The position numbers and the translations under genes are program-made. This document shows, piece by piece, positions 1-7,298 of a stretch of DNA of 7,298 nucleotides. The stretch is from positions 1-7,298 of the IMG/VR virus record IMGVR_UViG_2695420372_000001; one strand, 5' to 3'. The notes beneath the pieces are model-generated. The model was not told where the DNA came from and searched no databases. It worked only from the letters and a program-made list of their open reading frames with translations. Source of the DNA: a virus (Duplodnaviria > Heunggongvirae > Uroviricota > Caudoviricetes). How positions within the stretch are numbered: position 1 is the stretch's first letter; every line of letters starts with the position of its first letter.

Positions 1-300
1 GAAGAGGATTTTCCTGCGATCGCGGTTTATCTGACGGATGCAGAGTATACCGGTGAAGAGCTGGATGCAGATACCTGGCGGGCCACGCTGCATATTGAGG
101 TGTTTTTACCGGCACAGGTACCGGATTCAGAGCTTGATCAGTGGATGGAAAGCCGGATTTACCCGGCGATGACCGCGATCCCGGCACTGGCAGGACTGAT
201 TACCACGATGGTTACGCAGGGCTATGAGTATCGTCGTGATGACGATATGGCGTTATGGAGTTCTGCGGATCTGACTTATTCCATTACATACGAGATGTGA
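1..300 (+). CDS. U: Tail terminator protein (lambda gpU-like), 5' partial; start lies upstream of the window
   Basis: Frame 1 is open from base 1 to TGA at 298-300. Translation ([99 protein letters not shown]) matches the C-terminal part of lambda gpU as I recall it. Sits immediately upstream of V, as in lambda. Confidence 0.88.
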
Positions 301-307
301 GGACGAT

Positions 308-1054
308 ATGTCAACACCAAATCCCCTTGAGCCGGTAAAAGGTGCCGGTACCACCCTGTGGGTTTATAACGGTCAGGGTGACGCCTATGCAAACCCGTTG
401 TCAGACGATGACTGGCAGCGACTGGCTAAGGTGAAGGATCTGACGCCGGGCGAGATGACGGCAGAACCCTACGATGATAACTACCTGGATGATGAAGACG
501 CGGACTGGAGCGCGACCGGGCAGGGGCAGAAGTCTGCAGGAGATACCAGTTTTACGCTGGCCTGGAAACCGGGAGAAGAAGGTCAGAAAGGGCTTATAGG
601 CTGGTTTGAAAGCGGCGATGTCCGGGCCTATAAAATCCGTTTTCCGAATGGCACGGTGGATGTGTTTCGTGGCTGGGTCAGCAGTATCGGTAAGGCCGTG
701 ACGGCGAAAGAAGTGATCACCCGCACGGTGAAAGTCACTAACGTGGGTAAACCTTCTGTAGCGGAAGAACGCAGCAAAATTACGCCGGTCACTGCGATTA
801 AGGTAACGCCGACAGGTACGGTTGAAAAAGGGAAAACAACCACCCTGACCGTTACTGTGGAACCGGAAAATGCAACGGATAAGACATTCAGGGCGATTTC
901 CGCCGATCCATCAAAAGCCACCATTAGCGTGAAAGATATGACGATTACTGTGACGGGGGTTAAGGATGGAAAAGTCAGCATCCCTGTGATTTCCGGTAAT
1001 GGTCAGTTTGCTGCGGTGGCTGAAATTACCGTTAATAATGTGCCGGGTGGCTAA
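308..1054 (+). CDS. V: Major tail tube protein (lambda gpV-like), 248 aa, with C-terminal Ig-like domain
   Basis: ORF 308..1054. N-terminus [49 protein letters not shown] closely resembles lambda gpV (246 aa). GAGGA at 299-303 precedes the ATG at 308. Position between U and G matches lambda. Confidence 0.95.
776..1039 (+). other. C-terminal Ig-like (Big_2-type) domain of the major tail protein (approx. residues 157-244)
   Basis: Thr/Val-rich beta-strand pattern ([86 protein letters not shown]) typical of bacterial Ig-like group 2 domains. Lambda gpV is known to carry such a domain. Boundaries are approximate. Confidence 0.7.
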
Positions 1055-1072
1055 AGAGCTGAGAGATAAGCG

Positions 1073-1504
1073 ATGTTCCTGAAAACAGAACAATTTGAAT
1101 ATAACGGTGTATCCGTCACGCTTTCTGAGCTGTCTGCGCTGCAGCGTATTGAGCATCTTGCCCTCCTGAAACGGCGGGCAGAAGAGGCTGAAGCCAGCGG
1201 CAACCTGCAGGTGAGTGTGGAAGATCTTGTCAGAACCGGCGCGTTTCTGGTGGCGATGTCCCTGTGGCATAACCATCCACAGAAAACGCAGTCACCGTCA
1301 ATGAATGAGGCCGTGATGAAGATAGAGCAGGAAGTGCTCACCACCTGGCCTGCCGATGCCATTGCCCGGGCGGAAGACGTGGTGTTGTGCTTGTCCGGGA
1401 TGATCGAAGCTGTTCGTCCGGATACTGATATTACTGAAGTGGCGAAAAATAACACGCTGACTGATGATGATTTTTCTGCGGGAAAGTCTTCGACGGCGAG
1501 CTGA
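1073..1504 (+). CDS. G: Tail assembly chaperone (lambda gpG-like), 143 aa
   Basis: ORF 1073..1504. MFLKTEQFEYNGVSVTLSELSALQRIEHLALLKRRAEEAEA... and ...GAFLVAMSLWHNHPQKTQSPSMNEAVMKIEQEVLTTWP match lambda gpG as recalled. Located between V and H. Confidence 0.93.
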   Translation: MFLKTEQFEYNGVSVTLSELSALQRIEHLALLKRRAEEAEASGNLQVSVEDLVRTGAFLVAMSLWHNHPQKTQSPSMNEAVMKIEQEVLTTWPADAIARAEDVVLCLSGMIEAVRPDTDITEVAKNNTLTDDDFSAGKSSTAS

Positions 1505-1944
1505 ACTTTGCCCTCAGACTGGCGCGTGAGATGGGGAGACCCGACTGGCGCGCCATGCTTGCCGGGATGACATCCACCGAATATGCCGACTGGCACCGTT
1601 TTTACCGCACGCATTATTTTCAGGATACCCAGCTGGATATGCATTTTTCCGGGCTGACGTACGCTGTACTCAGCCTGTTTTTTTGCGATCCGGATATGCA
1701 TCCCTCTGATTTCAGTCTGCTTGTCCCCCGGCATGAGGAAGAGCAGGTGGAGAGGCCGGATGAGGACAAAATGCTGATGCAGAAAGCGGCAGGACTTGCC
1801 GGAGGCGTCCGGTTCGGTGGGGACGGAGGGCGCGATATTTTATCGTCTGCGGATGTGGCGGATGTCATGGTGGATGATGCCGCATTAATGATGGCTTCAG
1901 CGGGGATTCCGGGAGGTGTGAGATATGTCCCAGCCGGTTGGTGA
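1073..1944 (+). CDS. G-T: Tail assembly chaperone G-T fusion, made by programmed -1 ribosomal frameshift at 1480-1486 (joins 1073..1486 with -1 frame 1486..1944)
   Basis: Slippery heptamer G_GGA_AAG lies at 1480-1486 in the G frame. The -1 frame is open from there (VFDGELNFALRLAREMGRPDWRAMLAGMTSTEYADWHRFY...) to TGA at 1942-1944 and matches lambda gpT. The T frame has no convincing independent start or RBS. Confidence 0.85.
1480..1486 (+). other. -1 programmed ribosomal frameshift slippery heptamer GGGAAAG (G to G-T)
   Basis: Heptamer of form X_XXY_YYZ in the G frame, 6 codons before the G stop. Same sequence and relative position as the characterised lambda G/G-T recoding site. Confidence 0.85.
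1909..1913 (+). promoter_or_regulatory. Shine-Dalgarno (GGAGG) for the tape-measure gene
   Basis: GGAGG about 11 nt upstream of ATG 1925, lying inside the 3' end of the T reading frame. Confidence 0.6.
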
Positions 1945-4498
1945 TCTTGTTATTGACCTGAGTCTGGATGCTGTCCGTTTCGATGAGCAGATGAGCCGGG
2001 TAAGGCGTCATTTTTCAGGTCTGGATACCGACGCCAGAAAAACCGCCAGTGCTGTTGAACAGGGCCTGAGCCGCCAGGCGCTGGCTGCACAAAAAGCCGG
2101 GATTTCCGTCGGGCAGTATAAAGCGGCCATGCGAACCCTGCCCGCACAGTTTACGGATATCGCCACGCAGCTTGCCGGTGGTCAGAATCCCTGGCTGATC
2201 CTGCTGCAACAGGGCGGTCAGGTGAAGGACTCCTTCGGCGGGATGATCCCCATGTTCAGGGGGCTTGCCGGTGCGATCACCCTGCCGATGGTCGGGGTCA
2301 CCTCGCTGGCGGTGGCGACAGGTGCGCTGGTGTACGCCTGGTACCAGGGAGATTCCACGCTTTCAGCGTTTAATAAAACCCTGGTTCTTTCCGGTAATCA
2401 GTCCGGACTGACTGCCGATCGTATGCTGACTCTCTCAAGAGCCGGGCAGGCAGCAGGGCTGACGTTTAACCAGGCGAGAGAGTCACTGGCAGCCCTGGTG
2501 AATGCTGGTGTGCGTGGTGGTGAACAGTTTGATGCCATCAACCAGAGTGTCGCGCGTTTTGCGTCTGCATCCGGTGTGGAGGTGGATAAAGTCGCTGAAG
2601 CCTTCGGGAAGCTGACCACTGACCCGACGTCGGGACTGATGGCGATGGCGCGCCAGTTCCGTAACGTGACGGCAGAGCAGATTGCGTATGTTGCACAGCT
2701 GCAGCGTTCCGGAGACGAGGCCGGGGCATTGCAGGCGGCGAACGATATCGCCACGAAAGGCTTTGATGAGCAGACCCGTCGCCTGAAAGAAAACATGGGA
2801 ACACTGGAGACCTGGGCGGATAAAACAGGGAAGGCATTCAAATCGATGTGGGATGCCATTCTGGATATCGGTCGTCCTGAATCCTCAGCGGATATGCTCG
2901 CCAGTGCGCAGAAGGCATTTGATGAGGCGGATAAAAAATGGCAGTGGTACCAGAGCCGGAGCCAGCGCCGGGGAAAGACCTCCTCTTTTCGTGCGAACCT
3001 TCAGGGGGCATGGGATGACAGGGAAAATGCCCGTCTGGGTCTGGCAGCGGCCACGCTGCAGTCGGATATGGAAAAAGCCGGTGAACTGGCGGCAAGGGAC
3101 CGGGCTGAGCGTGAGGCGTCACAGCTGAAGTATACCGGAGAGGCGCAGAAGGCGTATGAGCGCCTGCAGACGCCGCTGGATAAATATACCGCCCGTCAGA
3201 AAGAGCTGAATAAGGCCCTGAAAGACGGAAAAATCCTGCAGGCGGATTACAACACGCTGATGGCGTCGGCAAAAAAGGATTATGAATCGACGCTGAAAAA
3301 GCCGTCCGGTGTGAAGGTGTCTGCCGGTGAGCGCCAGGAAGACCGGGCGCATGCAGCCATGCTGGCGCTTGAAACCGAGCTCAGGACGCTGGAAAAACAC
3401 AGCGGTGTGAATGAGAAAATCAGCCAGCAGCGCCGGGATTTATGGGAAGCGGAAAATCAGTATGTGGTCCTGAAAGAGGCCGCCACGAAACGGCAGTTAT
3501 CTGAGCAGGAAAAATCCCTGCTGGCTCATGAGAAAGAGACGCTGGAGTACAAACGCCAGCTGGCTGAGCTGGGAGACAAGATTGAACACCAGAAGCGGCT
3601 GAATGAGCTGGCACAGCAGGCGGCGCGGTTTGAACAGCAGCAGAGCGCGAAGCAGGCGGCAATCAGCGCAAAAGCCCGCGGCCTCACTGACCGTCAGGCG
3701 CAGCGGGAGTCGGAAGAGCAGCGCCTTCGTGAGGTGTACGGTGATAATCCGGCTGCGCTGGCGAAGGCCACATCTGCACTGAAGAACACCTGGTCTGCGG
3801 AGGAGCAGCTTCGTGGAAGCTGGATGGCCGGGATGAAGTCCGGCTGGGGCGAGTGGGCGGAAAGTGCGACGGACAGTTTTTCGCAGGTTAAAAACGCGGC
3901 CACGCAGACCTTTGACGGTATTGCACAGAATATGGCAGCGATGCTGACCGGCAGCGAACAGAACTGGCGGGGATTCACCCGTTCGGTGCTCTCCATGCTG
4001 ACAGAAATTCTGCTTAAGCAGGCAATGGTGGGGATTGTCGGGAGTATCGGCAGCGCCATTGGCGGGGCTGTTGGTGGCGGCGCATCCGCGTCAGGCGGTA
4101 CAGCCATTCAGGCCGCTACGGCGAAATTCCATTTTGCAACCGGAGGATTTACGGGAACCGGCGGCAAATATGAGCCAGCGGGAATTGTTCACCGCGGTGA
4201 ATTCGTCTTCACGAAGGAGGCAACCAGCCGGATTGGCGTGGGGAATCTCTACCGGCTGATGCGCGGCTATGCCACCGGCGGTTATGTCGGTACACCGGGC
4301 AGCATGGCGGACAGCCGGTCGCAGGCGTCCGGGACGTTTGAGCAGAATAACCATGTGGTGATTAACAACGACGGCACGAACGGTCAGATAGGGCCACAGG
4401 CACTGAAGGCTGTTTATGACGTAGCCCGTAAGGCGGCAATGGATGTTGTGACCGGGCAGATGCGCGATGGTGGTCTGTTCTCCGGAGGTGGACGATGA
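1925..4498 (+). CDS. H: Tail tape measure protein (lambda gpH-like), 857 aa
   Basis: ORF 1925..4498. N-terminus MSQPVGDLVIDLSLDAVRFDEQMSRVRRHFSG, the internal ...GGQNPWLILLQQGGQVKDSFGGMIPMFRGLAGAITLPMVG... and the C-terminus ...MRDGGLFSGGGR match lambda gpH (853 aa) as recalled. Start overlaps the T stop by 20 nt; stop overlaps the M start (ATGA). Confidence 0.95.
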   Translation: MSQPVGDLVIDLSLDAVRFDEQMSRVRRHFSGLDTDARKTASAVEQGLSRQALAAQKAGISVGQYKAAMRTLPAQFTDIATQLAGGQNPWLILLQQGGQVKDSFGGMIPMFRGLAGAITLPMVGVTSLAVATGALVYAWYQGDSTLSAFNKTLVLSGNQSGLTADRMLTLSRAGQAAGLTFNQARESLAALVNAGVRGGEQFDAINQSVARFASASGVEVDKVAEAFGKLTTDPTSGLMAMARQFRNVTAEQIAYVAQLQRSGDEAGALQAANDIATKGFDEQTRRLKENMGTLETWADKTGKAFKSMWDAILDIGRPESSADMLASAQKAFDEADKKWQWYQSRSQRRGKTSSFRANLQGAWDDRENARLGLAAATLQSDMEKAGELAARDRAEREASQLKYTGEAQKAYERLQTPLDKYTARQKELNKALKDGKILQADYNTLMASAKKDYESTLKKPSGVKVSAGERQEDRAHAAMLALETELRTLEKHSGVNEKISQQRRDLWEAENQYVVLKEAATKRQLSEQEKSLLAHEKETLEYKRQLAELGDKIEHQKRLNELAQQAARFEQQQSAKQAAISAKARGLTDRQAQRESEEQRLREVYGDNPAALAKATSALKNTWSAEEQLRGSWMAGMKSGWGEWAESATDSFSQVKNAATQTFDGIAQNMAAMLTGSEQNWRGFTRSVLSMLTEILLKQAMVGIVGSIGSAIGGAVGGGASASGGTAIQAATAKFHFATGGFTGTGGKYEPAGIVHRGEFVFTKEATSRIGVGNLYRLMRGYATGGYVGTPGSMADSRSQASGTFEQNNHVVINNDGTNGQIGPQALKAVYDVARKAAMDVVTGQMRDGGLFSGGGR

Positions 4499-4671
4499 AA
4501 ACCTTCCGCTGGAAAGTGAAACCCGGTATGGATGTGGCTTCGGCCCCTTCTGTAAGAAAGGTGCGCTTTGGTGATGGTTATTTCCAGCGAGCGCCTGCCG
4601 GGCTGAATGCCAACCTGAAAACGTACAGCGTGACGCTTTCTGTCCCCCGTGAGGAGGCCACGGTACTGGAG
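3410..4671 (+). repeat. Direct repeat copy A (gpH 3' portion + first 59 codons of gpM); homologous to 4683-5944
   Basis: Aligns to 4683-5944 at constant offset +1273 with no indels. 3999-4671 appears identical to 5272-5944; 3410-3998 is diverged (many substitutions, mostly at synonymous or conservative positions). Confidence 0.9.
4495..4671 (+). CDS. M: Minor tail protein (lambda gpM-like) 5' fragment, 59 codons, truncated by the N gap
   Basis: ATG at 4495 overlaps the H stop (ATGA). MKTFRWKVKPGMDVASAPSVRKVRFGDGYFQRAPAGLNANLKTYSVTLSVPREEATVLE is identical to the first 59 residues of the complete M at 5768. The reading frame runs into the N run at 4672. Confidence 0.75.
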
Positions 4672-4682
4672 NNNNNNNNNNN
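4672..4682. other. Run of 11 N (assembly or scaffold gap, or masked bases)
   Basis: Literal n characters in the sequence. They sit exactly at the junction between the two repeat copies. Confidence 0.99.
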
Positions 4683-5771
4683 AATGAGAAAATCAGCCAG
4701 CAGCGCCGGGATTTGTGGAAGGCGGAGAGTCAGTTCGCGGTACTGGAGGAGGCGGCGCAACGTCGCCAGCTGTCTGCACAGGAGAAATCCCTGCTGGCGC
4801 ATAAAGATGAGACGCTGGAGTACAAACGCCAGCTGGCTGCACTTGGCGACAAGGTTACGTATCAGGAGCGCCTGAACGCGCTGGCGCAGCAGGCGGATAA
4901 ATTCGCACAGCAGCAACGGGCAAAACGGGCCGCCATTGATGCGAAAAGCCGGGGGCTGACTGACCGGCAGGCAGAACGGGAAGCCACGGAACAGCGCCTG
5001 AAGGAACAGTATGGCGATAATCCGCTGGCGCTGAATAACATCATGTCAGAGCAGAAAAAGACCTGGGCGGCTGAAGACCAGCTTCGCGGGAACTGGATGG
5101 CAGGCCTGAAGTCCGGCTGGAGTGAGTGGGAAGAGAGCGCCACGGACAGTATGTCGCAGGTAAAAAGTGCAGCCACGCAGACCTTTGATGGTATTGCACA
5201 GAATATGGCGGCGATGCTGACCGGCAGTGAGCAGAACTGGCGCAGCTTCACCCGTTCCGTGCTGTCCATGATGACAGAAATTCTGCTTAAGCAGGCAATG
5301 GTGGGGATTGTCGGGAGTATCGGCAGCGCCATTGGCGGGGCTGTTGGTGGCGGCGCATCCGCGTCAGGCGGTACAGCCATTCAGGCCGCTACGGCGAAAT
5401 TCCATTTTGCAACCGGAGGATTTACGGGAACCGGCGGCAAATATGAGCCAGCGGGAATTGTTCACCGCGGTGAATTCGTCTTCACGAAGGAGGCAACCAG
5501 CCGGATTGGCGTGGGGAATCTCTACCGGCTGATGCGCGGCTATGCCACCGGCGGTTATGTCGGTACACCGGGCAGCATGGCGGACAGCCGGTCGCAGGCG
5601 TCCGGGACGTTTGAGCAGAATAACCATGTGGTGATTAACAACGACGGCACGAACGGTCAGATAGGGCCACAGGCACTGAAGGCTGTTTATGACGTAGCCC
5701 GTAAGGCGGCAATGGATGTTGTGACCGGGCAGATGCGCGATGGTGGTCTGTTCTCCGGAGGTGGACGATGA
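4683..5771 (+). CDS. H: Tail tape measure protein (gpH) 3' fragment, second allele, 5' end cut by the gap; about 362 codons
   Basis: Open frame from 4683 (NEKISQQRRDLWKAESQFAVLEEAAQRRQLSAQEKSLLAHKDETLEYKRQLAALGDKVTYQERLNALAQQ...) to TGA at 5769-5771. Homologous to H residues ~496-857 of the first copy. The ORF track calls it from a TTG at 4713, but the frame is open back to the gap. Confidence 0.8.
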   Translation, partial: NEKISQQRRDLWKAESQFAVLEEAAQRRQLSAQEKSLLAHKDETLEYKRQLAALGDKVTYQERLNALAQQADKFAQQQRAKRAAIDAKSRGLTDRQAEREATEQRLKEQYGDNPLALNNIMSEQKKTWAAEDQLRGNWMAGLKSGWSEWEESATDSMSQVKSAATQTFDGIAQNMAAMLTGSEQNWRSFTRSVLSMMTEILLKQAMVGIVGSIGSAIGGAVGGGASASGGTAIQAATAKFHFATGGFTGTGGKYEPAGIVHRGEFVFTKEATSRIGVGNLYRLMRGYATGGYVGTPGSMADSRSQASGTFEQNNHVVINNDGTNGQIGPQALKAVYDVARKAAMDVVTGQMRDGGLFSGGGR

Positions 5772-5944
5772 AAACCTTCCGCTGGAAAGTGAAACCCGGT
5801 ATGGATGTGGCTTCGGCCCCTTCTGTAAGAAAGGTGCGCTTTGGTGATGGTTATTTCCAGCGAGCGCCTGCCGGGCTGAATGCCAACCTGAAAACGTACA
5901 GCGTGACGCTTTCTGTCCCCCGTGAGGAGGCCACGGTACTGGAG
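4683..5944 (+). repeat. Direct repeat copy B (gpH 3' portion + 5' part of gpM); homologous to 3410-4671
   Basis: See copy A. Begins immediately after the N run. Confidence 0.9.
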
Positions 5945-6097
5945 TCGTTTCTGGCTGAGCACGGGGGCTGGAAAGCCTTTCTGTGGACGCCGCCTTATGA
6001 GTGGCGGCAGATAAAGGTGACCTGCGCAAAATGGTCGTCGCGGGTCAGTATGCTGCGTGTTGAGTTCAGCGCAGAGTTTGAACAGGTGGTTAACTGA
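5768..6097 (+). CDS. M: Minor tail protein (lambda gpM-like), 109 aa
   Basis: ORF 5768..6097. MKTFRWKVKPGMDVAS...FLWTPPYEWRQIKVTCAKWSSRVSMLRVEFSAEFEQVVN matches lambda gpM as recalled. GGAGG lies 7-11 nt upstream; start overlaps the H-fragment stop (ATGA). Confidence 0.95.
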   Translation: MKTFRWKVKPGMDVASAPSVRKVRFGDGYFQRAPAGLNANLKTYSVTLSVPREEATVLESFLAEHGGWKAFLWTPPYEWRQIKVTCAKWSSRVSMLRVEFSAEFEQVVN

Positions 6098-6795
6098 TGC
6101 AGGATATCCGGCAGGAAACACTGAATGAATGCACCCGTGCGGAGCAGTCGGCCAGCGTGGTGCTCTGGGAAATCGACCTGACAGAGGTCGGTGGAGAACG
6201 TTATTTTTTCTGTAATCAGCAGAACGAAAAAGGTGAGCCGGTCACCTGGCAGGGGCGACAGTATCAGCCGTATCCCATTCAGGGGAGTGGTTTTGAACTG
6301 AATGGCAAAGGCACCAGTACGCGCCCCACGCTGGCAGTCTCTAACCTGTACGGCATGGTCACCGGGATGGCGGAAGATCTGCAGAGTCTGGTCGGCGGAA
6401 CGGTGGTCCGGCGTAAGGTTTATGCCCGTTTTCTGGATGCAGTGAACTTCGTCAACGGAAACAGCGACGCCGATCCGGAGCAGGAGGTGATCAGCCGCTG
6501 GCGCATCGAGCAGTGCAGCGAACTGAGCGCGGTGAGTGCCTCCTTTGTACTGTCCACGCCGACTGAAACGGATGGCGCTGTTTTTCCGGGTCGTATCATG
6601 CTGGCCAACACCTGCACCTGGACCTATCGCGGCGATGAGTGCGGTTATCACGGTCCGGCTGTCGCGGATGAATATGACCAGCCGACGTCCGATATCACGA
6701 AGGATAAATGCAGCAAATGCCTGAGTGGCTGTAAGTTCCGCAATAATGTCGGCAACTTTGGCGGCTTCCTTTCCATTAACAAACTTTCGCAGTAA
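6097..6795 (+). CDS. L: Minor tail (tip) protein (lambda gpL-like), 232 aa, with C-terminal cysteine cluster
   Basis: ORF 6097..6795. MQDIRQETLNECTRAEQSASVVLWEIDLTEVGGERYFFCN... matches lambda gpL (232 aa) as recalled. Start overlaps the M stop (ATGA at 6094-6099). C-terminal Cys at residues 173, 182, 205, 208 and 212. Confidence 0.95.
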   Translation: MQDIRQETLNECTRAEQSASVVLWEIDLTEVGGERYFFCNQQNEKGEPVTWQGRQYQPYPIQGSGFELNGKGTSTRPTLAVSNLYGMVTGMAEDLQSLVGGTVVRRKVYARFLDAVNFVNGNSDADPEQEVISRWRIEQCSELSAVSASFVLSTPTETDGAVFPGRIMLANTCTWTYRGDECGYHGPAVADEYDQPTSDITKDKCSKCLSGCKFRNNVGNFGGFLSINKLSQ

Positions 6796-6800
6796 ATCCC

Positions 6801-7298
6801 ATGACAGAGACAGAATCAGCGATTCTGGCGCACGCCCGGCGATGTGCGCCAGCGGAGTCGTGCGGCTTCGTGGTGAGAACGCCGGAAGGGGAAAGATATT
6901 TTCCCTGTGTGAATATCTCCGGTGAGCCGGAGGCGTATTTCCGTATGGCTCCGGAGGACTGGCTGCAGGCAGAGATGCAGGGTGAGATTGTGGCGCTGGT
7001 CCACAGTCACCCCGGTGGTCTGCCCTGGCTGAGTGAGGCCGACCGGCGGCTGCAGGTGCAGAGTGATTTGCCGTGGTGGCTGGTCTGCCGGGGGGCGATT
7101 CACAAGTTCCGCTGTGTGCCGCATCTCACCGGGCGGCGCTTTGAGCACGGGGTGACGGACTGTTACACGCTGTTCCGGGATGCTTATCATCTGGCGGGGA
7201 TTGAGATGCCGGATTTTCATCGCGAGGATGACTGGTGGCGTCACGGTCAGAATCTCTATCTGGATAATCTGGAGGCCACAGGGCTGTATCAGGTGCCG
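6801..7298 (+). CDS. K: Tail assembly protein (lambda gpK-like), 3' partial (166 codons, runs off window); JAB/MPN and NlpC/P60 motifs
   Basis: ATG at 6801, frame open to the window end. MTETESAILAHARRCAPAESCGFVV...EIVALVHSHPGGLPWLSEADRRLQVQSDLPWWLVCRG...GVTDCYTLFRDAYHLAGIEMPDFHREDDWWRHGQNLYLDNLEATGLYQVP matches lambda gpK as recalled. Absent from the ORF track only because no stop lies in the window. Confidence 0.92.
   Translation, partial: MTETESAILAHARRCAPAESCGFVVRTPEGERYFPCVNISGEPEAYFRMAPEDWLQAEMQGEIVALVHSHPGGLPWLSEADRRLQVQSDLPWWLVCRGAIHKFRCVPHLTGRRFEHGVTDCYTLFRDAYHLAGIEMPDFHREDDWWRHGQNLYLDNLEATGLYQVP

What the first reader, a model, noticed from the sequence alone, without database searches (positions are those of the whole stretch)
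4683..7298. Right-hand genes look closer to canonical phage lambda than the left-hand genes do
From memory of the lambda proteins, the second H fragment, M, L and K here are almost residue-for-residue lambda-like, for example the H segment DLWKAESQFAVLEEAAQRRQLSAQEKSLLAHKDETLEYKRQLAALGDKVTYQERLNALAQQADKFAQQQRAKRAAIDAKSRGLTDRQAEREATEQRL. By contrast U, V, G, T and the first H copy carry many substitutions relative to lambda. If correct, the gap joins two different lambdoid backgrounds, which supports either a misjoin between two prophages or a natural mosaic. This rests on recall, not on a computed alignment.
Basis: partly seen in the sequence, partly recalled or inferred. Interest (0 to 1): 0.4.

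Follow-up and report, generated by a model that had tools for sequence, protein, structure and literature searches.

The report
Mosaic lambdoid prophage plus scaffold misjoin
The right-hand genes really are much closer to phage lambda than the left-hand ones, but this is ordinary prophage mosaicism, with the switch point inside the tape-measure gene, and the N gap is an assembly artefact that splices in about 0.6 kb of a second prophage's tape-measure gene.

Summary
Against lambda NC_001416, the left flank (1-4671) is 81.4% identical in DNA and the right flank (4683-7298) is 96.8%. At protein level U, V, G, T and H score 70-81%, while H', M, L and K score 96-98%. The quoted 97-residue peptide equals lambda H 501-597 exactly.

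The switch is not at the gap. A maximum chi-square test puts it at about 3898, inside the intact left H gene, where mismatches fall from 20% to 4%. The last 673 nt of the left flank (3999-4671) are identical, base for base, to 5272-5944.

The two flanks overlap by 1262 nt of homologous sequence with no indels, so they cannot be true neighbours. Deleting 4672-5944 gives a single-copy prophage. That arrangement appears at 99.9-100% over H-M-L-K in two N-free IMG/VR contigs, at 100% in a sibling scaffold, and in complete E. coli genomes.

Only 4683-5271 is foreign. It is a lambda-type H allele that is 100% identical to many wild E. coli prophages. The finished O104:H4 genome carries both alleles in two separate prophages, which share an 837-nt exact repeat starting at the same place in H.

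Verdict: known lambdoid mosaicism plus a scaffolding artefact. Low interest.

The parts
1..300 (+). 3' part of tail terminator gene U (left-type allele), cut by the window start
   Evidence: Pfam Phage_tail_U, E=4e-47. 80.8% aa and 76.5% nt identity to lambda U.
308..1054 (+). Major tail tube gene V with a C-terminal Big_2 Ig-like domain (left-type allele)
   Evidence: Pfam Phage_TTP_12 and Big_2. 77.3% aa identity to lambda V. The 801-1000 stretch is only 63-67% nt identical to lambda.
1073..1944 (+). Tail assembly chaperone genes G (1073-1504) and G-T. The slippery heptamer G GGA AAG lies at 1480-1486, and the -1 frame runs on to 1944.
   Evidence: Pfam Phage_TAC_2 and Phage_tail_T. The -1 frame read from 1480 gives GKVFDGELNFALRLAREMGRPDW..., which matches the start of lambda T.
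1925..4498 (+). Intact tape measure gene H, 857 aa, left-type. It is itself a mosaic: about 80% lambda-like up to ~3898 and about 96% after.
   Evidence: ORF. Pfam TMP_2 and Tape_meas_lam_C. Identity profile in 50-aa bins. Found at 99.6-100% in DEC5D, L020 and L006.
3898..3999 (+). Natural recombination (mosaic) junction zone inside H, where identity to lambda jumps from about 80% to about 96%
   Evidence: Maximum chi-square breakpoint at 3898: chi2 282 against a permutation maximum of 22. The last left/right difference is at 3998. The two O104:H4 prophages switch from ~80% to ~100% mutual identity at the same place.
3999..4671 (+). End of the left contig (3' end of H plus the first 59 codons of M). 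It is the same sequence as 5272-5944.
   Evidence: 673/673 identical at an offset of 1273.
4672..4682 (.). Run of 11 N: an artificial join, not a real adjacency
   Evidence: The flanks overlap by 1262 homologous nt. All 40 best complete-genome places map the two flanks onto one 2128-2134-nt locus, which equals the query length minus 1273.
4683..5271 (+). Foreign piece: a lambda-type allele of H (lambda H aa 492-687) from a second lambdoid prophage. It has no start codon of its own.
   Evidence: One mismatch to lambda. 76% identical to the collinear left stretch 3410-3998. 100% identical in many wild complete E. coli genomes, with 1832 records at >=99%. Its first 32 nt (4683-4714) are a maximal exact match to 3410-3441.
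5272..5944 (+). Redundant second copy of 3999-4671. 5272-5390 is a 119-nt run identical in both H alleles; from 5391 on, the sequence follows the left-type prophage.
   Evidence: All 7 differences from the sibling's true lambda-type contig (L024 piece 1) lie at >=5391. At each of them L024 piece 1 matches lambda and the window's right flank matches its left flank.
5768..6097 (+). Tail tip gene M (complete)
   Evidence: Pfam Phage_min_tail. 96.3% aa identity to lambda M.
6097..6795 (+). Tail tip gene L
   Evidence: Pfam Phage_tail_L, E=3e-100. 97.8% aa identity to lambda L.
6801..7298 (+). 5' part of tail tip assembly gene K (JAB/MPN domain), cut by the window end
   Evidence: Pfam Prok-JAB. 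97.5% aa identity over the 118 residues that overlap lambda's annotated K.

Best explanation
The window is a scaffold, not a continuous piece of chromosome.

The real element is one lambdoid prophage tail module, U-V-G/GT-H-M-L-K, equal to window 1-4671 followed directly by 5945-7298. It is a natural recombinational mosaic. From U to about codon 660-690 of H it belongs to a lineage roughly 80% identical to lambda. From there through M, L and K it belongs to the lambda-like lineage, at about 96%.

The source sample also holds a second, lambda-type prophage. Its H gene is collinear with the first, without indels, and shares exact runs with it: 32 nt at 3410-3441, and 119 nt from 3999 on. The assembler emitted the alternative lambda-type branch (4683-5271) attached to the shared downstream sequence. 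The scaffolder then placed that contig after the left contig with an N spacer. The result is an apparent H...M' | H'-M-L-K partial duplication.

What is shown: the identities, the overlap, the position of the breakpoint, the single-copy arrangement elsewhere, and the co-residence of both alleles in a finished genome. What is inferred: the assembly-graph mechanism, and that the two alleles sit in one genome in this particular sample.
For: - Overlap: 3410-4671 is collinear with 4683-5944. The first 589 nt are 76% identical and the last 673 nt are 100% identical.
- Breakpoint to lambda at 3898, inside continuous sequence.
- With 4672-5944 deleted, the window matches L038 at 100% over 3168 nt across the junction, and L020 and L006 as single HSPs over all 6025 nt.
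- In L020 and L006, H is 100.0% and M-L-K 99.9% identical to the window.
- The 40 best complete-genome places for window 3000-6400 all span 2128-2134 nt, so both flanks fall on one copy and none is tandem.
- Sibling scaffolds L024 and L038 interleave the same two alleles with N joins in other orders.
- The right contig starts on the first base of a maximal 32-nt exact run shared by the two alleles.
- The differences from the true lambda-type contig all lie after the 119-nt shared run.
- O104:H4 FDAARGOS_349 carries both alleles in two separate prophages, at about 0.13 Mb and 4.72 Mb, with an 837-nt exact repeat beginning in the 3' end of H and the same M protein accession.
- Literature: lambdoid mosaics are commonplace and mostly sub-genic (PMC3945230). 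Lambdoid prophages fragment short-read E. coli assemblies (PMC7175801).
Against: - The source record and its reads were not found, so the assembler, the k-mer size and the scaffolder are unknown.
- The left contig end at 4671 does not fall exactly on a repeat boundary that I could define.
- A 31-nt exact run at 4809-4839 did not break the right contig, so a simple k=31 de Bruijn picture is incomplete.
- The junction 'lambda-type head, left-type body' (5240-5400) occurs in one other place, sibling L024. It could therefore be a real recombinant in a further prophage rather than a chimera. The control showed this test has little power, because the left-type parental 160-mer is itself found in only 2 contigs.
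Confidence: 0.88

Rival explanations
1. The whole right flank (4683-7298) is a faithful contig of a second prophage. That prophage is lambda-type up to 5390 and from 5272 on is identical to the first prophage through M-L-K, giving an exact repeat of at least 2 kb. The gap is still an artificial join, but the right contig is not a chimera. This is a sub-variant of the best explanation and differs only in whether the right contig is chimeric.
For: The same lambda-type to left-type junction is present at 100% in sibling scaffold L024, piece 3, which extends 500 nt further upstream in lambda-type sequence. The finished O104:H4 genome shows two prophages sharing an 837-nt exact run and an identical M protein.
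Against: L024 also holds a lambda-type contig (piece 1) that stays lambda-type through 5654-equivalent. This reading therefore needs three H alleles in that lineage. No complete genome matches the right flank better than 98.2%. The junction 160-mer was found in no other IMG/VR contig, although that test has low power.
Confidence: 0.3
2. A genuine local partial duplication exists in one prophage: intact H, a truncated M', then a promoterless H' fragment followed by M-L-K.
For: The window reads this way at face value. The same left-type then lambda-type order recurs in L024.
Against: The two copies differ by 24% over 589 nt and then by 0% over 673 nt. That is not the pattern of a duplication. 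A run of N sits exactly at the supposed junction. None of the 40 best complete-genome places has the extra 1273 nt. N-free contigs of the same haplotype are single-copy. L038 joins the alleles in the opposite order.
Confidence: 0.03
3. The lambda-type piece 4683-5271 is laboratory lambda DNA contaminating the library, or comes from a second strain in a mixed sample, rather than from a co-resident prophage.
For: 4683-5382 has a single mismatch to the lambda reference. Lambda-like records under implausible host names exist in the phage collection.
Against: The one difference from lambda (A at 5040) is shared with L024 piece 1. That piece is only 98.5% identical to lambda over 5.5 kb, so it is a wild relative and not the laboratory strain. 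The 589 nt are 100% identical in many wild complete E. coli chromosomes. Both alleles co-reside in O104:H4. A mixed-strain origin cannot be excluded without reads.
Confidence: 0.07

Closest known systems
Phage lambda tail module U-V-G/GT-H-M-L-K (NC_001416, 8552-14875)
   Same: Identical gene order and Pfam families. The G-T slippery heptamer is conserved. H' (4683-5771), M, L and K are 96-98% identical in protein, and 4683-5382 is 699/700 identical in DNA.
   Different: U, V, G, T and the first ~690 codons of H are only 70-81% identical in protein. H is 857 aa against 853 aa, and H residues 301-400 are only 44-46% identical.
Prophage of E. coli O55:H7 DEC5D (NZ_CP038386, L002) and the left-type prophage of O104:H4 FDAARGOS_349 (L044)
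   Same: The same left-type U-V-G-T-H, with the same intragenic switch to lambda-like sequence, followed by a single M-L-K. DEC5D is 99.6-99.8% identical over G-T-H. L044 is 97% identical over the left flank.
   Different: M-L-K is only 96.5% identical to the window's. U is split by ISEc31 in DEC5D. Neither has an N gap or a second H fragment.
IMG/VR contigs L020 (IMGVR_UViG_2609459801_000002) and L006 (IMGVR_UViG_2585427758_000002)
   Same: N-free and single-copy. H is 100.0%, H3'-M' 99.9% and M-L-K 99.9% identical to the window with 4672-5944 removed.
   Different: The U'-V region is 95-96% identical, which is a further small mosaic patch. They have no lambda-type H fragment.
Sibling scaffolds L024 (IMGVR_UViG_2695420863_000001) and L038 (IMGVR_UViG_2695420718_000005)
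   Same: They hold the same two H alleles at 100% identity, and N joins fall inside the H/M region.
   Different: The contig breakpoints and the order of the alleles differ. L038 runs from left-type H straight into M-L-K without a gap.

Membership tests
Lambda-like siphovirus tail assembly module | Gene order U-V-G-T-H-M-L-K on one strand, with the corresponding protein families | tested here: met
   ORFs. Pfam Phage_tail_U, Phage_TTP_12+Big_2, Phage_TAC_2, Phage_tail_T, TMP_2+Tape_meas_lam_C, Phage_min_tail, Phage_tail_L and Prok-JAB, all above the curated cut-offs. Order as in NC_001416.
Lambda-like siphovirus tail assembly module | Programmed -1 frameshift site G GGA AAG near the end of G that fuses G to T | tested here: met
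   GGGAAAG at 1480-1486 in the G frame. The -1 frame from 1480 is open to 1944 and matches lambda T. Frameshifting itself was not tested.
Species Lambdavirus lambda (about 95% nucleotide identity genome-wide) | At least ~95% nucleotide identity over the compared region | tested here: not met
   1-3998 is 80.3% identical to lambda. Only 3999-7298 reaches 96-97%. The whole genome was not available.
Natural recombinational mosaic between lambdoid phages | Abrupt, statistically supported change of identity inside uninterrupted sequence | tested here: met
   Maximum chi-square 282 at 3898 against a permutation maximum of 22. Mismatch rate falls from 20.0% to 4.0%.
Natural recombinational mosaic between lambdoid phages | The same junction present in independent finished genomes or contigs | tested here: met
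   DEC5D is 99-100% identical through 3800-4500. The two O104:H4 prophages switch from ~80% to 100% mutual identity at the equivalent position. L020 and L006 agree.
Scaffolding or assembly artefact at a multi-copy prophage repeat | The sequences flanking the gap overlap in homologous coordinates instead of abutting | tested here: met
   3410-4671 and 4683-5944 are collinear, and the last 673 nt are identical. Both map to lambda 12015-13276.
Scaffolding or assembly artefact at a multi-copy prophage repeat | Contig ends coincide with the boundaries of exact repeats | tested here: inconclusive
   The right contig starts on the first base of a maximal 32-nt shared run. The left contig end at 4671 lies inside a shared run, not at its edge.
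Scaffolding or assembly artefact at a multi-copy prophage repeat | Single-copy arrangement in finished genomes and independent contigs of the same haplotype | tested here: met
   The top 40 complete-genome places span 2128-2134 nt. L038 matches at 100%, and L020 and L006 at 99.9-100% across the junction.
Scaffolding or assembly artefact at a multi-copy prophage repeat | Read-level evidence: depth doubling over the shared part, and no reads crossing the join | not testable with these tools
   The source record and its reads were not available.

The most novel reading that the evidence does not exclude
The H...M' | H'-M-L-K arrangement is a real local structure. It would be a partial duplication created by recombination between two co-resident lambdoid prophages, leaving a second, promoterless C-terminal tape-measure fragment of a different allele inside a tail operon.
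Probability: 0.03. Interest if true: 0.3.

Novelty: already known. Interest (0 to 1): 0.08.

Why it matters
The value is mainly in curation. Any gene call, prophage boundary or duplication inferred across 4672-5944 of this scaffold would be wrong, and the H' fragment should not be annotated as a pseudogene of this prophage.

Biologically it is one more clean example of a sub-genic recombination junction inside the lambda-family tape measure gene. That junction is shared by prophages of O55:H7, O104:H4 and other E. coli, which fits the known picture of lambdoid mosaicism. It opens no new question.

Tried and rejected
- Looking for the source scaffold with a pattern spanning the N run found nothing in IMG/VR.
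- A left-specific 40-mer in the species-representative genomes found only an Escherichia albertii NBRC 107761 contig. It is 94% identical and is not the source.
- I tried to decide whether the right contig is a chimera by counting exact 160-mers across the 119-nt shared run. The recombinant form appears in 1 contig, the lambda-type parental form in at least 120, and the left-type parental form in only 2. The A at 4118/5391 is lineage-specific, so the test cannot discriminate and I do not lean on it.
- My first collinearity check used an offset of 1272 and gave random-level identity. The correct offset is 1273.
- Laboratory lambda contamination as the origin of 4683-5271 was rejected. The piece differs from lambda at 5040, it is 100% identical in many wild chromosomes, and its sibling contig is only 98.5% lambda-like.
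- The first literature search, on general terms, gave nothing useful.
Full report
**Anatomy**

The window carries a lambda-type tail module on the + strand. Every gene hits the expected Pfam family above its curated cut-off.

| Feature | Coordinates | Note |
|---|---|---|
| U' | 1-300 | cut by the window start |
| V | 308-1054 | |
| G | 1073-1504 | -1 frame (T) continues to 1944 |
| H | 1925-4498 | intact, 857 aa |
| M' | 4495-4671 | first 59 codons only |
| N run | 4672-4682 | 11 N |
| H' | 4683-5771 | fragment without a start codon |
| M | 5768-6097 | complete |
| L | 6097-6795 | |
| K' | 6801-7298 | cut by the window end |

**Checking the observation**

I fetched lambda NC_001416 7500-16000 as L001 and aligned both flanks to it.

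- The left flank is 81.4% identical and the right flank 96.8%.
- Protein identities are U' 80.8%, V 77.3%, G 69.8%, T 75.5% and left H 80.8%. Against these, M' is 96.6%, H' 97.2%, M 96.3%, L 97.8% and K' 97.5%.
- 4683-5382 differs from lambda at one base, 5040.

**Where the switch lies**

The 100-nt identity profile of the left flank rises to 0.90-1.00 from 3901 onward.

I then tested the window with 4672-5944 removed. A maximum chi-square scan puts the breakpoint at 3898, with mismatch rates of 20.0% before it and 4.0% after. Chi-square is 282, against a maximum of 22 in 1000 permutations. The change in background therefore sits about 770 nt upstream of the gap, in uninterrupted sequence, inside an intact H reading frame.

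**The gap**

The two flanks overlap. 3410-4671 is collinear with 4683-5944 at an offset of 1273, with no indels. The first 589 nt are 76% identical and the last 673 nt (3999-4671 = 5272-5944) are 100% identical. Both stretches map to lambda 12015-13276. Sequences that overlap by 1.26 kb of homologous coordinates cannot be neighbours across a short gap. The only exception would be a partial duplication.

**Is a duplication real anywhere?**

- Querying 3000-6400 against 5,426 complete E. coli genomes, the best 40 places all span 2128-2134 nt in the record. That equals the query length minus 1273, so both flanks fall on one copy.
- An IMG/VR scan with a left-specific 40-mer returned 38 loci.
- With 4672-5944 deleted, the window matches L038 at 100% over 3168 nt straight across the junction. 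It matches the N-free contigs L020 and L006 as single alignments over all 6025 nt.
- By segment, L020 and L006 are 100.0% identical over H 1945-3998, 99.9% over 3999-4671 and 99.9% over M-L-K 5945-7298.

The right-hand M, L and K therefore belong to the same haplotype as the left-hand H. Their greater lambda-likeness is a property of one natural mosaic prophage.

The same junction is present in the finished genome of O55:H7 DEC5D, which is 99-100% identical through it and has a single H-M-L-K.

**What 4683-5271 is**

This 589-nt stretch is the only sequence with no counterpart in that prophage. It is a lambda-type H allele. It is 100% identical in many wild complete E. coli chromosomes, and 1832 records match at 99% or better.

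Two sibling scaffolds hold both alleles at 100% identity, with N joins in other places and in other orders.

- L024 reads: lambda-type Fi..H | N | left-type H 2623-4561 | N | lambda-type H, running into the window's right flank.
- L038 reads: lambda-type ..H | N | left-type H running straight into M-L-K.

All seven differences between the window's right flank and L024's lambda-type contig lie at 5391 or beyond. At each of them the sibling contig matches lambda and the window's right flank matches its own left flank.

The right flank can therefore be read in three parts:

- 4683-5271, the lambda-type branch;
- 5272-5390, a 119-nt run that is exact in both alleles;
- from 5391 on, left-type prophage sequence.

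The right flank also begins on the first base of a maximal 32-nt exact run shared by the alleles, 3410-3441 = 4683-4714. That is what a contig starting at an assembly-graph branch point looks like.

**A finished-genome model**

E. coli O104:H4 FDAARGOS_349 carries both alleles in two separate prophages. The left-type prophage lies at about 0.13 Mb (L044) and the lambda-type prophage at about 4.72 Mb (L042). The two are 65-95% identical from U to mid-H, then share an 837-nt exact run starting in the 3' end of H. They also encode the same M protein accession. A short-read assembly of such a genome would produce exactly the contig topology seen here.

Published work agrees. Homogeneous lambdoid prophages are a known cause of fragmented E. 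coli assemblies (PMC7175801). [quoted passage not shown]

**Mechanism**

Shown:
- the identities to lambda;
- the overlap between the flanks;
- the intragenic breakpoint;
- the single-copy arrangement in independent contigs and finished genomes;
- the co-residence of the two alleles in one finished chromosome.

Inferred:
- that homologous recombination between lambdoid phages or prophages created the H junction;
- that an assembler and scaffolder serialised two alternative H branches between shared exact runs.

**Open points**

- I could not find the source record.
- I could not decide whether the right contig is a chimera through the 119-nt run or a faithful contig of a further recombinant prophage. 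The exact-160-mer test had too little power.
- The left contig end at 4671 is not at a repeat edge that I could define.
- A 31-nt shared run at 4809-4839 did not break the right contig.

**Verdict**

The mosaic is real but lies inside H. The misjoin is real but concerns only the 589-nt H' head plus a redundant 673 nt. Both phenomena are well known, and interest is low.

Noticed in passing
window 1480-1486 and 1480-1944: The lambda G-T programmed -1 frameshift heptamer G GGA AAG is conserved in the G frame, even though G is only 70% identical to lambda in protein. The -1 frame reads GKVFDGELNFALRLAREMGRPDW... through to 1944.
   Followed up: partly
window 2825-3125 (H codons ~301-400): A hyperdivergent block inside the left-type H is only 44-46% identical to lambda in protein and contains several indels. 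It accounts for the length difference of 857 against 853 aa. It sits between blocks at 92% identity, so the left side is itself a fine-grained mosaic.
   Followed up: partly
window 800-1100 (C-terminal Big_2 domain of V): This is the stretch of V most divergent from lambda, at 63-67% nt identity. It is also the stretch where otherwise close left-type relatives diverge: O104:H4 L044 is 82-86% identical there, and L020 and L006 are 95-96% over U'-V. That suggests a separate exchangeable patch.
   Followed up: no
window 4384-4441 and 5657-5714 (H residues ~821-840): About 18 substitutions relative to lambda are packed into 58 nt near the C-terminus of H, in an otherwise 96-100% identical region. 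The cluster is present in both copies and looks like a micro-mosaic patch.
   Followed up: no
L024 8240 and 10180; L038 5990: Two IMG/VR scaffolds, from IMG taxon ids in the same number range, carry single-N joins inside the same H/M region. They interleave the same two H alleles in different orders, so the misassembly recurs across that batch of assemblies.
   Followed up: yes
L002 6192-7457 (E. coli O55:H7 DEC5D): The closest complete-genome relative of the left flank has its U gene split by an ISEc31 insertion, so that prophage is probably defective.
   Followed up: no
L003 (Escherichia albertii NBRC 107761, NZ_BBMY01000112.1): The E. albertii type strain carries the left-type tail module at 94.3% nt identity over 4.7 kb. 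Its downstream M-L-K is only 79% identical to the window's right flank, so the left-type module is combined with a different tail tip in another species.
   Followed up: partly
phage collection hit H47, MW057783.1: A record named 'Campylobacter phage CJLB-4' (48,361 nt, host Campylobacter jejuni) matches the right flank exactly as lambda does, at 96.6% with lambda gene names. It may be lambda DNA filed under another host.
   Followed up: no
window 6801 (start of K): The K reading frame opens at 6801, well upstream of the position equivalent to lambda RefSeq's annotated K start (14276). It encodes an N-terminal JAB/MPN domain. PGAP annotates the longer 247-aa C40 peptidase form in E. coli prophages.
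   Followed up: no
window 4672-4682: The N run is 11 nt long. With lambda-type proxies (O104:H4 L042, RM7190 L043), the exact run shared around the left contig end finishes at 5954-equivalent, 10-11 nt after the contig end. This may be coincidence or a trace of how the scaffold was built.
   Followed up: no
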